A stretch of DNA of 64,000 bases from Heptranchias perlo (lineage: Eukaryota), in NCBI RefSeq assembly GCF_035084215.1, contig NC_090353.1:31868001-31932000 (forward strand). Direction: 5' to 3'. The notes under the pieces were generated by a model. The model worked only from the letters and a program-made list of their open reading frames with translations. It did no database searches and was not told the DNA's origin. The translations under genes and the position numbers were made by a program. Every line of letters starts with the position of its first letter. Positions within the stretch are counted from its first letter, which is position 1. Below, piece after piece: positions 42,834 to 48,077 of the stretch.

Positions 42834-43426
42834 ATAAAAGCTTTGGTCAGAGGCTACGAGTACTTGTTTGCTCTTCCATTTGTTTCTGTCACTCAGGGAG
42901 ACACATAGATTCCCCCGCCCCCACTCAATTAGTCTCAGTCGTCCTTCAACTGAGCAGCTTGATGTTGGCAGTTTTTGAAATGGCTCCCAGATCACACAGG
43001 GAGAGTCATTCAAACAGCAAAGAAATGACTTGACCGAATCTTTCTTTCTTCATAAAAGATCAGGTGTTACGTGTAATTCAGATCTAAGTAATATTGTGAG
43101 CCAGTAACGTGAATGTATTTGGATTAATGTTCAAAAACCGTAAGCATTTAAAAGAATCTTCTTCCGAATCAATGGGAATAAATGGGATCTGAGGTGGCAG
43201 AGACTCGGATATATATCACATGCAGCCTCCAAATACCTTCTGTCAGTGCAGGGCAAGATCAAAAAGCAATCGGTGCTCATTTGCTGTGATTCCTTTCTTC
43301 TAAATCTTCAGGGGACTGCTGGAGGATGCAAACATAAGCCTTATTTCCCACCCTTTGATCCTTCCTGCTATACTGTTTGACCTTCCTGTGAAGTGCTTTA
43401 TGTTCTGCAAAGTCCTCCCAACACAT
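42834..43426 (+). repeat. Left arm of a long non-coding inverted repeat
   Basis: Reverse complement of 47257-47745 plus 47986-48077. Core 43162-43295 has one mismatch in 134 bp. Confidence 0.92.
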
Positions 43427-43825
43427 GCCCAAGGGGCAGAGTGAGTTTAATTACCCCATTAGTTTGCCTCATCTCTTCGATATGAGTTTGCGCTCATTAG
43501 GGCAAAGGATTAAGTGATGGCAATTGAATTGATCTTCCATCCTGCAAGTAGCGATGATTTGAAGGACAAGGTATTGGCATAAAGCAGCACGGACGGTTCT
43601 CCTCAGCATCCTAAGAATGTGTAAAAAATTCATGCAGCATTTCGACAACATAATGATGGCACGCCCCAATTTCAGCAACAGAACTGGCATATAAATGAGG
43701 CTGCGCTGGTGTCCCTGGCAACATGGGAGGTGCCAGCTTATAAGGTGTTTTAGCTCCAGTGCCCCCCAAAAAATGTCAATGGGTTCTCAAGAAAGTACAT
43801 TCACATTACAGTCACGTGTATTTCA

Positions 43826-44310
43826 AAGAAACATAGAAAATAGGAGCAGGAGTAGGCCATTCGGCCCTTCGAGCTTGCTCCGCCATTCAATATGATCATG
43901 GCTGATCCTCTATCTCAATACCATATTCCCACTCTCTCCCCATACCGCTTGATGCCTTTTGTGTCTAGAAATCTATCTAGCTCCCTCTTAAATATATTCA
44001 GTGACTTGGCCTCCACAGCCTTCTGTGGTAGAGAATTCCACAGGTTCACCACCCTCTGAGTGAAGAAATTTCTCCTCATCTCAGTCCTAAATGTCCTAAC
44101 CCGTATCCTGAGACTGTGACCCCTCGTTCTGGACCCCCCAGCCAGGGGAAACATCCTCCCTGCATCCAGTCTGTCTAGCCCTGTCAGAATTTTATATGTT
44201 TCAATGAGATCCCCTCTCATTCTTCTAAACTTGAGTGAATGCAGGCCGAGTCGACCCAATCTCTCCTCGTACGACAGTCCTGCCATCCCAGGGATCAGTC
44301 TGGTGAACAG
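43826..44310 (-). mobile_element. CR1 3' fragment
   Basis: ORF 43915-44286: GLSYEERLGRLGLHSLKFRRMRGDLIETYKIL... Confidence 0.9.
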
Positions 44311-44419
44311 TTATGAAGCCATTGTACAATTAAGGGTACTTTCACATATATATTTTGTCAGATCATTACATATTGAGGTGTACGATCCTACAAATTTCAT
44401 GTGTACATTTCCATGGGTG

Positions 44420-44880
44420 TCAGCCGAGGTTCAGTGGGGAGCACACTTGCCTCTGAGTCAGAAGGTTGCAGGTTCAAGTCCCACTGCAGGACTTGAGTAT
44501 AAAATCTAGGCTGACATTCCAGTGCAGTGCGGGAGTGCTGCAGTGTTGGAGGTGCCGTCTTTTGGATGAGATGTTAAACCGAGGCCTCGTCTGCCCTTGT
44601 CGGTGGACGTAAAAGATCCCATGGCATTATTTTGAAGAAGAGCAAAGGAGTTCTCCCCATTGTTTGGCCAATATTTATCCCTCGACCAACATCACTAAAA
44701 CAGATTATCTGGTCATTATAACATTGCTGTTTGTGGGACCTTGCTGTGTGCAAATTGGCTGCTGCATTTCCTACATTACGATAGTGACTACATTACACTT
44801 CGAAAGTACTTAATTGGCTGTAAAGTGCTTTGGGACACCCTGAGATCTTGAAAAGCGCTATATAAATGCAAGTCTTTCTT
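44420..44880 (+). mobile_element. Full-length tRNA-derived Deu-domain SINE (SacSINE1/AmnSINE1-like); other copies at ~8517-8930, 26600-26870 and 34513-34960 (+), and 15745-16120, 49970-50240 and 58440-58870 (-)
   Basis: tRNA-like head with B box (ggttcaagtccc), core tgctgtgtgcaaattggctgctgcatttcctacattac, and an L2-type tail gctatataaatgcaagtctttc. Family name is from recall. Confidence 0.8.
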
Positions 44881-45942
44881 TTTCTCATTGATATTTTATG
44901 AAATCACTGCGCATCTCGATTACCTGCATCCAGTCTGCTTGTACTGGGAGCGATGTAGGTTAGGGGGTAGGGTGGTGATAGTGTGGGACTGAGGCAGCTT
45001 CTTTGGCCCTGGATTCTAGGAGTAAGCTGGGCTTGGGGATATGGGGAAAGACGCCTTTCCCATTTGGCGGTCATGTTGGCCGGGGTCTGTGCTACTAATG
45101 GCCAGTGGGTGGGTTGTTGCGCTAAGGGTGGGGGGCAGTTTGCGTTGAGTGGGTTTCCAAGAACGGGAGGTCAGACTCTTCCGGAGGGCAAACTTAATTT
45201 GCTGTCATTGGCCGTGCTCAAGCCGCACGCTGCCTTCTGTTCTCAGAGCTCAGCCCTTCTTTATAGGCAGAAATTGCTGGCCTGTATGAACCTTCCCCAG
45301 CTAGTGAGGAAGCTCCATGGCCACAAAAGCCAAGATAGCAACTTTTAAACAAGTCCTCACAACATATAGTGGTACTGGACCAACAACATGAGTCATGAGT
45401 TCAAGTCCCACCATGGCATTTTGTGAAATTGAATTCAATAAACCTGATCATGTGTGGCCAGGCACCAGAGGGGAATGAAGTGACCAGGAAAACTGCCAGG
45501 TTGTCATAAAAACCCAACTGGCTTACAGGGAAGGGCACCTGCCATCCCTACCTGGTGTGGGCTACATGGACTACGTGGTTGACCCTAATGCCCTCTGAAG
45601 TGGTGCAGCAATCCACTCAGTTGTAGAAAGAAAATCACTGTGAACTAGAAGGCCCACCACCACCTCAATAGGGCAACAAGGGAAAGACAATAAATGCGGC
45701 CGAACCAGCGTCACACATCCTGAAAAAAATTAGTACTGTTGTTTTTGTTGCTGTCGAATCCACCTTGAACTGATATCAGAGAAGAACCCGGAACAATTCC
45801 ACTATGTGCGCCACTAGACTCTACTTGAGGGTCTTTGTCTCTATATTTCTCTCATATTTCTGTCTTTCTTCCTCCCCCTCTCTCCTCCTGTCTTTTCTCT
45901 TTTTCGCTCTTCCTTTGTTTCAGTCTAGCTCTGTTTTGCCTC

Positions 45943-46058
45943 TGTTAGACTCGAATTTTTGGAGCAAAACCAAACGGAGACGGAACTGCTGACAAAGTTA
46001 AAGTTTATTAGAAAGTTCCGTCTCCGTTTGGTTTTGCTTCAAAAATTCGAGTCCAACA
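45943..46058. repeat. Foldback palindrome: 45-bp arms (2 mismatches) with a 26-nt loop
   Basis: tgttagactcgaatttttggagcaaaaccaaacggagacggaact (45943-45987) pairs with agttccgtctccgtttggttttgcttcaaaaattcgagtccaaca (46014-46058). Confidence 0.93.
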
Positions 46059-46516
46059 CCTCATAATACATTGAGGGGTTTAAATGAAACTTTAAATGAT
46101 TCAAATGGTTGAGTGGTCTATCAACATCTTCTCAACCTGGAGATGTAATTATGCCCTTGAAACAAACAAGACTGCTGCAGTGAATGAAGGACACAAACAT
46201 GCTTAAATAGCTTGAGTATATCGAGCATTCCATACTGCTTATTCAAAAGACAGTGCAGCGCTCCCTCAGTACTGCACTGAGGTGTCAGCCTAGGTTTTGT
46301 ATTAAAGAAGTACATGCACGAAAGACATGATTATCAGATCCAGGTCACAAGTGAGTTTTATTGTTACGCTTCCAGGTTACGCTATTGTGTGAGTAAGTAG
46401 AGGGCAGTGTACCTTAACTTCCCATAAAAGTAAGATGCCCAGACCGATTGATGTCACTGAAGCCAAGTAGGTATCTACGGAAGTCTTGAATTCGTAACAT
46501 CTGTCTCTTGAAAGTA

Positions 46517-47050
46517 ACAACAACTTGCATTTATATAGCATCTTTAATGTAGTAAAATATCCCAAGGCACATCACAGAAGTGTAATCAGACAAAAATTCA
46601 CCAAGCCAAAGAAGGATACGTTAGGACAGATGGCCAAAAACTTGGTCAAAGAGGTAGATTTTAAGGAGCGTCCTAAAGGAGGAGGAAGAGGCACAAAGGT
46701 TTAGGGAGGGAATTCCAGAGCTTAGGGCCTAGATGGCTTGAGGCACAGCAGCCAGTGGTGTGGCGATGAAAATCGGGGATGCACAAGAGGCCAGAGTTGG
46801 AGGAACGCAGAGTTCTCAGAGAGTTGCATGGTTGGAGGAGGTCACAGAGATAGGGAGGGGCGAGGCCATGGAGGGATTTGAACACAAGGATGAGGATTTT
46901 ACAACTGAGGCATTGCCGGACCGGGAGCCAATGTAGGTCAGCGAGCACAGGGTTAATGGATGAATAGGACTTGGTGCGAGTTAGGAGACGGACAGCAGAG
47001 TTTTGGAGGGTGGAAGATGCAAGGCTGGCCAGGACAGCATTGGAATACCT
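46517..47050 (-). mobile_element. L2-clade LINE 3' end, longest copy
   Basis: LADLHWLPVRQ..KILILVFKSLHGLAPPYLCDLLQP..LRSSNSGLL..PKLWNSLP. Confidence 0.88.
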
Positions 47051-47256
47051 GTAAAGTATTTGTGCCTATGTGCAAGTGCAGTGGCACTTAATGTGTTCAT
47101 TACATCTTTCCTGTAGTTTTACCACATTGGGAATGAGGAGAGGTGCTACAGTTTGTGAATGGAACCAAAATACCAAAAGCAGGGTTCAAAAAAATCCTGC
47201 TTTTTTTTCATTTCAAAGAGCAAGATGACCAATTACACGCACCCTGCTCCTCAGGA

Positions 47257-48077
47257 ATGTGTTGGGAGGACTATGCTGAACATAAAACAGTTCACAGGAA
47301 GGTCAAACAGTACAGCAGGAAGGATCAAAGGGTGAGAAATAAGGCTTATGTTTGCATCCTCCAGCAGTCCCCTGAAGGTTTGGAAGGAAGGAATCACAGC
47401 AAATGAGCACCGATTGCTTTTTGATCTTCCCCTGCACTGACAGAAGGTATTTGGAGGCTGCATGTGATATATATCCGAGTCTCTGCCACCTCAGATCCCA
47501 TTTATTCCCATTGATTCGGAAAAAGATTCTTTTAAGTGCTTATGGTTTTTGAACATTAATCCAAATACATTCACATTACTGGTTCACAATATTACTTCGA
47601 TCTGAATTACATGTAACACCTGACCTTTTATAAAGAAAGATTCGGTCAAGTCATTTCTTTGCTGTTTGAATGACTCTCCCTGTGTGCTCTGGGAACCATT
47701 TCAAGAACTGCCAACATCAAGCTGCTGAGTTGAGGGACGTCTGACAACGACAACTTGCATTTATAAAGCGCCTTTAATGTAGTAAAACGTCCCATGGCGC
47801 TTCACAGGATCGATTATCAAACAAAATTTGACACCGAGCCACATAAGGAGATAGTAGGACAGGTGACCAAAAGCTTGGTCAAAGAGGTAGGTTTTAAGGA
47901 GCGTCTTAAAGGAGGAGGGAGAGGCGGAGAGGCGGAGAGGTTTAGCGAGGGAATTCCAGAGCTCAGGGCCTCGGCAGCTGAAGGCTGAGACTAATTGGAG
48001 GGGGAGGGGGTGATCTATAAGTCTCCCTGAGTGACAGTGACAAATGAGCACTTGCAGACTCTGACTAAAGCTTTTAT
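47257..48077 (-). repeat. Right arm of the inverted repeat, interrupted by an L2 fragment at ~47746-47985
   Basis: Matches the left arm on both sides of the L2 insert (ctgagactaattg...gtctccctgagtgacag...aaagcttttat resumes after it). Confidence 0.9.

What the first reader, a model, noticed from the sequence alone, without database searches (positions are those of the whole stretch)
42834..48077. Non-coding inverted arms more conserved than the duplicated coding exon
Seen: ~590 bp arms in inverted orientation, each in the same orientation relative to its own WFIKKN1 copy (about 7 kb and 14 kb upstream). The core has 92 bp of perfect identity and one mismatch in 134 bp, while the exon 1 proteins differ at ~29% of residues. 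I could not align the surrounding intergenic DNA by eye. An L2 fragment sits in the right arm only, so the arms predate it. No TE hallmark or meaningful ORF is visible. Inference: a duplicated, strongly constrained WFIKKN1 enhancer, or arm-to-arm gene conversion in a decayed palindrome. A transcript spanning both arms would form ~490 bp of dsRNA.
Basis: partly seen in the sequence, partly recalled or inferred. Interest (0 to 1): 0.7.

Follow-up and report, generated by a model that had tools for sequence, protein, structure and literature searches.

The report
Gene-converted islands in old shark palindrome
Sharks carry two old, head-to-head copies of the muscle-growth regulator gene WFIKKN1 whose surroundings have drifted apart, but the main coding exon and a short non-coding stretch between the genes are still being copied onto each other; this is a known process, here apparently lasting unusually long, and the non-coding stretch may be a shared control element.

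Summary
The inverted arms are real: 42828-43452 against 48083-47231, 93% alike inside, 92 bp perfect, two copies only in window and in reads of the matching organism. They lie between two head-to-head WFIKKN1 genes. Their likeness is due to gene conversion, not to frozen sequence: the 92-bp 'perfect' core differs at 6 or more sites from three other organisms, and in one of these both arms share those other letters, while old arm-specific ends are kept. The same holds for the genes: in 4 of 4 shark genera with both proteins listed, exon 1 groups by paralog (24-42 differences) but exon 2 groups by species (1-2 of 492 residues). So this is a decayed inverted duplication, probably over 200 million years old, with conversion surviving in islands. 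The core also changes about half as fast between species as its flanks (6-7% against 11-15%), which hints at an enhancer; function is untested. Not a transposon; no sign of a structured RNA. The scan has noted conversion-kept inverted duplicates on other DNA, not this locus; I found no paper on it. Known mechanism, unusual age and patchwork.

The parts
42828..43452 (+). Left arm of the inverted repeat (outer part 42828-42934 about 74% like the right arm; inner part 42935-43452 93%)
43094..43387 (+). Core of the left arm: one collapsed contig at double depth in organism E; about 6% from that organism; holds the 92-bp perfect run 43162-43253
43453..43720 (.). Inner flank of the left arm: no counterpart at the right arm, but alignable at 85-88% in organisms E and D and (to 43618) H; single-copy depth control
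47231..48083 (-). Right arm of the inverted repeat (core 47296-47589), interrupted by a retroelement fragment
47744..47985 (-). 242-bp dispersed-repeat fragment (L2-type 3' end; family label recalled, not from a call), in the right arm only; absent from the right arm of organisms E and D
   Evidence: (loose ends at 42935/42938 in X1; records 10 and 18)
43453..47230 (.). 3778-bp spacer, mostly dispersed-repeat pieces and one hairpin element (45943-46058); no transposase-like frame seen
35467..35736 (-). WFIKKN1 copy A, coding part of exon 1 (90 aa, identical to the start of P0130 / XP_067824828)
30675..32171 (-). WFIKKN1 copy A, exon-2 frame (Ig, two Kunitz, NTR by Pfam); identical to the end of P0130, 1 residue from P0123
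61985..62245 (+). WFIKKN1 copy B, coding part of exon 1 (87 aa, identical to the start of P0123 / XP_067824829); its exon 2 lies beyond the window (inferred)
35785..35917 (-). Block upstream of the A start codon that still aligns with 61764-61898 upstream of B (promoter or 5' UTR, inferred)

Best explanation
An inverted (head-to-head) duplication of WFIKKN1 arose before the main shark lineages split. Most of it has decayed: transposon insertions and substitutions broke the homology and stopped recombination between the arms. In islands where long, uninterrupted homology survived (exon 2, about 1.5 kb, and the 300-500 bp non-coding core), ectopic gene conversion between the inverted copies keeps resetting them to near-identity within each species while they drift between species. 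SHOWN: inverted geometry; paralog-wise exon 1 against species-wise exon 2; both arms sharing lineage-specific letters. INFERRED: conversion as the mechanism (about 0.85 for the arms, about 0.93 for exon 2). INFERRED, weaker (about 0.55): the non-coding island persists because purifying selection on an enhancer-like element keeps insertions and deletions out, which keeps it convertible; the result is one mature myostatin/GDF11 antagonist under two diverged promoters and N-termini, served by two matched enhancer copies.
For: (1) Exon 2: paired proteins differ by 2/492, 1/492, 1/492 and 1/494 residues in Stegostoma, Heptranchias, Heterodontus and Pristiophorus, against 16-69 between these genera; exon 1 pairs differ by 42/80, 25/87, 24/85, 26/77. 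AU tests on 15 rows: exon-1 A copies form a clade (99/100) and species pairs are rejected (p 3.6e-4, 1.7e-56); in exon 2 the A clade is rejected (p 6.5e-68). (2) Arms: organism E has two contigs over 42877-43123, and both carry a letter that neither of our arms has at 6 listed sites (42976, 42977, 43036, 43047, 43052, 43062). (3) Over 43094-43387 E has one contig at depth 21, beside pairs of 11.5+9.2 and 12.1+10.6: implied shared 31-mers 0.84-1.03, against 0.33 for our arms and 0.16 at ortholog divergence; D gives 0.68-0.81 against 0.26. The method recovers our own case (expected 10.8-14.0, seen 12.7). That shared E sequence differs from both our arms at 9 listed sites and 2 single-base indels; 8 of the 9 sites and both indels are also in D and H. 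(4) The duplication is old: the right-type contig starts at 42877 and ends at 43439-43452 in A, D and E, and 42992 is T (left) / G (right) in both A and E. (5) Between species the core differs by 17/294 (E) and 25/364 (D), flanks by 11-15%; p 0.0002 and 0.035 in E; Y-palindrome arms are only 20-28% slower than spacers (PMC3723533, passages). The larger lesions seen (our insert, a 115-bp skip in D) hit the outer part, not the core.
Against: E's collapsed core is read from contig depth, not from two sequences; assemblers can merge near-alike copies. Only 40 of 142 difference rows were shown. Two of the 6 directly seen sites flank an indel and two are adjacent; with 3-4 events the outer part alone is weak (p 0.003-0.44 by assumptions); the combined 9 events give p 2e-7 to 0.07. 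Our own arms differ by about 6%, far more than exon 2, so conversion is slow or has lapsed in this lineage. Core-versus-flank contrast is not significant in D (p 0.06 twice), and conversion biased to the ancestral state can lower divergence without function. No GC excess: core GC 0.42, flank 0.45, exon-2 GC3 0.63 like exon 1. Recalled transcription-factor motifs are at background density. Exon 2 was compared as protein only. The organisms laid are coded, so the arm result has no date.
Confidence: 0.78

Rival explanations
1. Conversion without function: the non-coding island is a neutral remnant that has by chance escaped disruption and is kept alike, and a little slowed, by conversion alone.
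For: The 92-bp run fits an even scatter (p 0.17); no motif enrichment; core-flank contrast borderline in D; ancestral-state bias of conversion is on record (PMC3723533); D lacks 115 bp of the left outer part.
Against: About 31% of the window is covered by self-hits, a lower bound on repeats, and all other intergenic homology is gone; a neutral island would be expected to be broken once and then escape (PMC3924837, passages). The single-copy flank 43453-43720, which has no conversion partner, also aligns at 85-88%. The slowdown in E (about 50-60%) exceeds the 20-28% of Y arms.
Confidence: 0.3
2. A duplicated enhancer held by purifying selection alone, each arm evolving on its own.
For: Identity peaks in the middle and decays to the edges; core slower than flanks between species; some arm-specific letters are kept across species (42992; E and H lefts share 42956, 43067, 43071). 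A like argument was made for coelacanth neurohypophysial exon 2 (PMC2315648).
Against: It needs the same change twice, in both arms, at 15 listed sites and 2 indels (9 events when merged; 0.8-5.0 expected); the perfect core is 0/92 between arms but at least 6/92 to other species (p 0.03); exon 2 shows concerted evolution at the same locus.
Confidence: 0.08
3. Repeated recent re-duplication in each lineage, or false duplication in assemblies.
For: Near-identical paralogs within species are what either would give.
Against: Exon 1 groups by paralog across genera; arm ends and arm-specific letters are shared across A, D, E; reads of the matching organism hold both arms with their own flanks at single depth and the insert junctions.
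Confidence: 0.04
4. The arms are terminal inverted repeats of an unrecognised DNA transposon, or two copies of a dispersed repeat.
For: Long inverted ends around a 3.8-kb interior resemble that layout (own knowledge).
Against: Two copies in the window; of 9 contigs laid from the matching organism at 80% likeness, those over the arm are all left- or right-arm type, summed depth about twice single; the other three runs likewise give at most two arm types; no transposase-like frame in the spacer; orientation matches the two genes.
Confidence: 0.03
5. The arms are kept to pair as long dsRNA in a transcript spanning both, or encode a structured RNA.
For: About 500 bp could pair at 93%; compensating change in both arms is what pairing would also need.
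Against: No Rfam family in the arms; each strand of the core folds no better than shuffles (z +1.71, +0.68); both genes point away from this region; it would not explain exon 2.
Confidence: 0.04

Closest known systems
Primate X and Y palindromes kept by arm-to-arm gene conversion (PMC8327919, passages; PMC3723533, passages)
   Same: Inverted copies older than the species, alike within and different between species; arms slower than spacer between species; selection on contained genes proposed as what preserves them.
   Different: [quoted passage not shown] Here homology survives only as islands of 0.3-1.5 kb at 93% to near 100%, exon 1 and promoters have escaped, and the split of the genera concerned is Triassic or older.
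FLNA-EMD flanking inverted repeats (as cited in PMC8327919; original not read)
   Same: Long-lived inverted repeats in a vertebrate lineage, suggested over 100 million years old.
   Different: Orthology of those repeats across mammals is open by that paper; here exon 1 shows one old duplication. They flank unrelated genes; here the repeats are parts of the duplicated gene itself.
Oxytocin/vasopressin precursor genes, exon 2 (PMC2315648, passages)
   Same: Adjacent old paralogs, on opposite strands in placental mammals, with one exon far more alike than the others; conversion versus selection debated.
   Different: Tail-to-tail, exon about 200 bp, identity varies from 67% to 98% among vertebrates. 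Here head-to-head, a 1.5-kb exon in 4 of 4 genera, plus a distal non-coding island.
Yeast ribosomal-protein duplicates under long conversion (PMC3924837, passages)
   Same: Coding sequence homogenised while regulatory regions diverge: same protein, two expression programs.
   Different: That review reports little conversion in non-coding regulatory DNA; here a non-coding island 7-14 kb from the genes is converted.
Duplicated conserved non-coding elements of vertebrates (search listing only)
   Same: Non-coding block kept beside both paralogs and alignable across species.
   Different: Those are held by selection on separate chromosomes (own knowledge); here paralog identity comes mainly from conversion; enhancer activity untested.

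Membership tests
Concerted evolution of inverted duplicates by interlocus gene conversion | Copies in inverted orientation on one chromosome | tested here: met
   for arms and exon 1; exon 2 of B lies outside the window (orientation inferred from exon 1 B)
Concerted evolution of inverted duplicates by interlocus gene conversion | Duplication older than the species compared | tested here: met
   exon-1 A clade 99/100, species pairs rejected; shared arm ends and site 42992
Concerted evolution of inverted duplicates by interlocus gene conversion | Paralogs within a species closer than orthologs between species | tested here: met
   exon 2 in 4 of 4 genera; arm core in E and D by contig depth; in the window's species arm-arm (about 5%) and arm-ortholog (about 6%) are close, with shared sites
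Concerted evolution of inverted duplicates by interlocus gene conversion | Homogenisation extends to synonymous sites of exon 2 | not testable with these tools
   no DNA for exon 2 of B (no genome held)
Concerted evolution of inverted duplicates by interlocus gene conversion | GC bias in converted tracts (common, not required) | tested here: inconclusive
   no GC excess in core or exon-2 GC3; GARP-rich exon 2 in Pristiophorus but also in a skate with one gene listed
Large sex-chromosome palindromes | Long continuous arms over 99% alike | tested here: not met
   about 0.6-kb arms at 93%; intergenic DNA not alignable
Large sex-chromosome palindromes | Sex linkage and testis-biased genes | not tested
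   no data
Conserved non-coding element / enhancer | Non-coding | tested here: met
   stops in all frames, 4-bp indel; no Rfam hit
Conserved non-coding element / enhancer | Slower than neutral between species | tested here: inconclusive
   core 5.8-6.9% against flanks 10.7-14.9%; p 0.0002 and 0.035 (E), 0.06 and 0.06 (D); no neutral yardstick; conversion bias confounds
Conserved non-coding element / enhancer | Open chromatin or reporter activity; conservation in bony vertebrates | not testable with these tools
DNA transposon ends or dispersed repeat | Many dispersed copies | tested here: not met
   2 copies in window; only left- and right-type contigs in 4 of 4 runs at 80% likeness; older copies under 80% not excluded
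DNA transposon ends or dispersed repeat | Transposase frame between the ends | tested here: not met
   frames of 90 aa or more in the spacer are retroelement-like or featureless; 2 of them scanned with Pfam, 0 hits
DNA transposon ends or dispersed repeat | Target-site duplication | not tested
   outer ends are decayed

The most novel reading that the evidence does not exclude
Selection shapes the conversion map: for over 200 million years sharks have kept what is in effect one WFIKKN1 protein under two promoters, with conversion favoured in exon 2 and in a paired enhancer and resisted in exon 1; the two enhancer copies, 3.8 kb apart, are co-engaged in chromatin, which itself promotes their conversion, so regulatory changes spread to both genes at once.
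Probability: 0.15. Interest if true: 0.75.

Novelty: new variant of a known kind. Interest (0 to 1): 0.5.

Why it matters
[quoted passage not shown] This locus gives a vertebrate case across shark genera whose split is put at the Triassic or 278-288 Ma (bioRxiv 10.64898/2026.02.13.705779, passages), with converted and escaped parts side by side. With existing shark assemblies one can test what keeps conversion alive (tract length, insertion-free homology, selection) and whether a distal regulatory element can be co-evolved by it. It is also a warning: near-perfect identity between paralogous non-coding blocks is not evidence of ultraconservation, and exon-2-based trees or read mapping will merge these two genes. 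WFIKKN1 controls myostatin activity (PMC3906830, title and start of abstract), so the pair may bear on shark muscle or skeletal patterning.

Tried and rejected
Whole-genome search: no genome held, so copy number rests on contigs of one run. No RNA holder listed for the arm; no evidence either way. Organism H showed one unbroken left-type contig and no right arm; absence of cover is not evidence; it does join left-outer to left-inner sequence, so no net inversion between arms is seen there. Swapped letters at 43071 (a CpG site) were considered as a crossover sign and rejected as likely recurrent change. The two contigs in E as alleles: rejected, since the left flank has single depth 12.1 and one contig leaves at the right-arm end. 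Coding exon in the arm: rejected. Rfam: only a tRNA-like hit elsewhere. Folding: no signal. Motif look with recalled consensus patterns: one TCF-like and one Fox-like site, E-boxes at background. Second cluster look-up returned the same 15 of 42 members, so genera with one copy listed (Hemiscyllium, Rhincodon, Carcharodon, Scyliorhinus, Mobula) cannot be judged. One search failed with a wrong frame and split; redone. Literature: searches (WFIKKN/GASP with shark, elasmobranch, duplication, conversion, enhancer) listed no paper on this duplication; PMC3427181 has 0 hits for shark, chondrichth, gene conversion; PMC7932699 passages concern mouse open chromatin. Subscription papers are outside the library; no supplements were read, and bioRxiv ones are closed. 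Own-scan look-ups by place found nothing.
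Full report
OBSERVATION. The window holds one pair of non-repeat inverted arms: 42935-43452 with 47744-47231 (93.2% over 518 columns) and 42828-42952 with 48083-47975 (73.8%). The longest perfect run is 92 bp, with one mismatch in 134 bp. A 31-base core pattern has 2 matches in the window, 0 in 100 shuffles. Neither arm has an open frame, an Rfam match or better-than-shuffle folding. The 92-bp run is not itself special given 22 differences in 474 bp (p 0.17).

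THE GENES. Exon 1 of copy A (coding 35467-35736, minus) and of copy B (61985-62245, plus) point away from the arms, 7092 and 13902 bp off. The large exon of A (30675-32171) is closest to shark proteins named WFIKKN1-like (94%), then coelacanth WFIKKN1 (77%), then WFIKKN2 (65-66%). The window's translations equal the starts of two Heptranchias records, P0130 and P0123; exon 2 equals the end of P0130 and differs from P0123 by one residue, so B has its own exon 2 beyond the window (location inferred). Exon 1 paralogs: 25 of 87 residues differ, dS 0.37 on 62 synonymous sites.

CONCERTED EVOLUTION OF EXON 2. Cluster listings gave 15 of 42, 7 of 7, 2 of 2 and 3 of 3 members. Four genera had both proteins listed (P0141 is taken as Pristiophorus from its two-member cluster; its name was cut). 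In all 4, exon 1 differs at 24-42 of 77-87 residues and exon 2 at 1-2 of 492-494, while exon 2 differs by 16-69 between these genera. With 15 rows (isoforms, fragments, odd N-termini and distant outgroups left out), the exon-1 A copies form a clade (99/100) and the two species pairs tested are rejected (p 3.6e-4, 1.7e-56); in exon 2 the A clade is rejected (p 6.5e-68) and those pairs are clades. In the fuller tree with outgroups the A clade had 86/86. The skate cluster's members with an exon 1 that I aligned are B-type and the chimaera cluster looks like one gene, so A may be shark-specific or lost in rays; not settled. The split of Hexanchiformes from the other genera is Triassic in earlier work or 278-288 Ma (bioRxiv 10.64898/2026.02.13.705779, passages), which dates the duplication as probably over 200 million years.

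THE ARMS IN OTHER ORGANISMS. The arm was held by 20 rows from 7 studies: organism A at 0.85 (possibly the source, not independent), the rest at 0.24 or less. I laid 4 runs (A, E, D, H) on 42806-43818 at 80% likeness. In A, contigs over the arm are of left or right type only, with the insert junctions as loose ends. In E, two contigs cover the outer part, one the core (43094-43387, depth 21), two the inner end, one of which runs into the left flank at depth 12.1. D is similar (core depth 46.2) with a 115-bp skip in its left outer part. H shows one left-type contig. The right-type contigs begin at 42877 and end at 43439-43452 in A, D and E and lack the insert in D and E, and site 42992 is T/G in left/right in both A and E: one old duplication, older than the insert.

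EVIDENCE FOR CONVERSION IN THE ARMS. Of the 40 difference rows shown (of 142), 6 are sites where both E contigs carry a letter absent from both our arms, and 9 more plus 2 single-base indels lie in the collapsed core; 6 of them fall inside the 92-bp perfect run. Depth implies E's arms share 84-103% of core 31-mers and D's 68-81%, against 33% and 26% for our arms; the same sum predicts our own collapsed contig (10.8-14.0 expected, 12.7 seen). Parallel mutation would give 0.8-5.0 such events where 9 merged events are seen (p 2e-7 to 0.07); the directly seen outer sites alone are weak once indel-flanking and adjacent sites are merged (p 0.003-0.44). Kept arm-specific letters beside shared ones point to short, patchy tracts (inference). 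Our arms differ by about 6%, more than E's, so conversion is slower or has lapsed in this lineage.

IS IT ALSO AN ENHANCER? Between species the core differs by 5.8% (E) and 6.9% (D), the flanks by 10.7-14.9%; p 0.0002 and 0.035 in E, 0.06 twice in D. Neutral conversion should not slow divergence (own knowledge), but Y-palindrome arms are 20-28% slower than spacers, put down to ancestral-state bias (PMC3723533, passages). The block 42807-43720 aligns in three other organisms in a repeat-rich region, and the large lesions avoid the core. Against: no motif enrichment, no neutral yardstick, no functional data. I put the enhancer reading at about 0.55.

MECHANISM. Conversion goes on until substitutions, TE insertions or large indels break pairing (PMC3924837, passages). 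Here most of the duplication has escaped; islands where selection (certain for exon 2, likely for the core) removed such lesions remain convertible. Exon 1 (270 bp) and the promoters have escaped, giving two promoters and N-termini on one mature protein. No GC bias is visible in the window's species.

COMPARISON AND NOVELTY. It works like primate X/Y palindromes, the oxytocin/vasopressin exon 2 case and yeast ribosomal-protein duplicates, but fails the large-palindrome test of long arms over 99% alike. It differs in age and in including a distal non-coding island; conversion lasting hundreds of millions of years is called very rare (PMC6053082, passages). Searches listed no paper on the shark duplication. 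The scan's own notes hold several conversion-kept inverted duplicates in other genomes, none for this locus; I did not check them.

VERDICT. Real feature; gene conversion in a decayed, ancient inverted duplication, extending to exon 2; possible enhancer, untested. New variant of a known kind; interest 0.5.

Noticed in passing
window 8973-9170: 199-bp near-perfect hairpin element (96% self-inverted) with partial copies at 19787-19881, 55219-55339 and 57991-58115; MITE-like (label inferred)
   Followed up: no
window 45943-46058: 116-bp hairpin element (87% self-inverted) inside the spacer between the arms, single in the window
   Followed up: no
window 35785-35917 and 61764-61898: Block upstream of both start codons, with about 60 bp at over 90% identity: a second non-coding island, promoter or 5' UTR
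   Followed up: partly
window 35180-35211 and 62566-62598: 33-bp intron-1 block, 88% alike, collinear with the inverted duplication
   Followed up: no
window 19200-19450 (-): FAM174-like first exon (Pfam PF06679, E 4e-4, below the curated cut-off) followed by a low-complexity G-rich tandem array 18566-19128; neighbour could test whether this is the WFIKKN1 syntenic site
   Followed up: partly
window 20135-21334 (-): 399-aa open frame that looks like a Penelope-type retroelement (label recalled); no Pfam hit
   Followed up: partly
window 27097-28127: 43-bp tandem arrays
   Followed up: no
window 11546-11623 (+): tRNA-like Rfam match, 34.7 bits, perhaps a SINE head
   Followed up: no
P0003, P0141, P0135: Exon 2 of Pristiophorus and of a skate is shifted to GC-rich-codon residues (GARP 131 and 122 against 104-110) with long branches
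   Followed up: partly
P0130, P0132: In Heptranchias and Stegostoma one of the few A-versus-B differences in exon 2 lies about ten residues from the C-terminus, perhaps near the edge of the converted tract
   Followed up: no
window 43663-43720: Short dispersed repeat inside the conserved left flank: several contigs with loose ends in E, D and H
   Followed up: no
window 29571-29916 and 52932-53282: Inverted match at 68%, not collinear with the duplication; probably an old repeat
   Followed up: no
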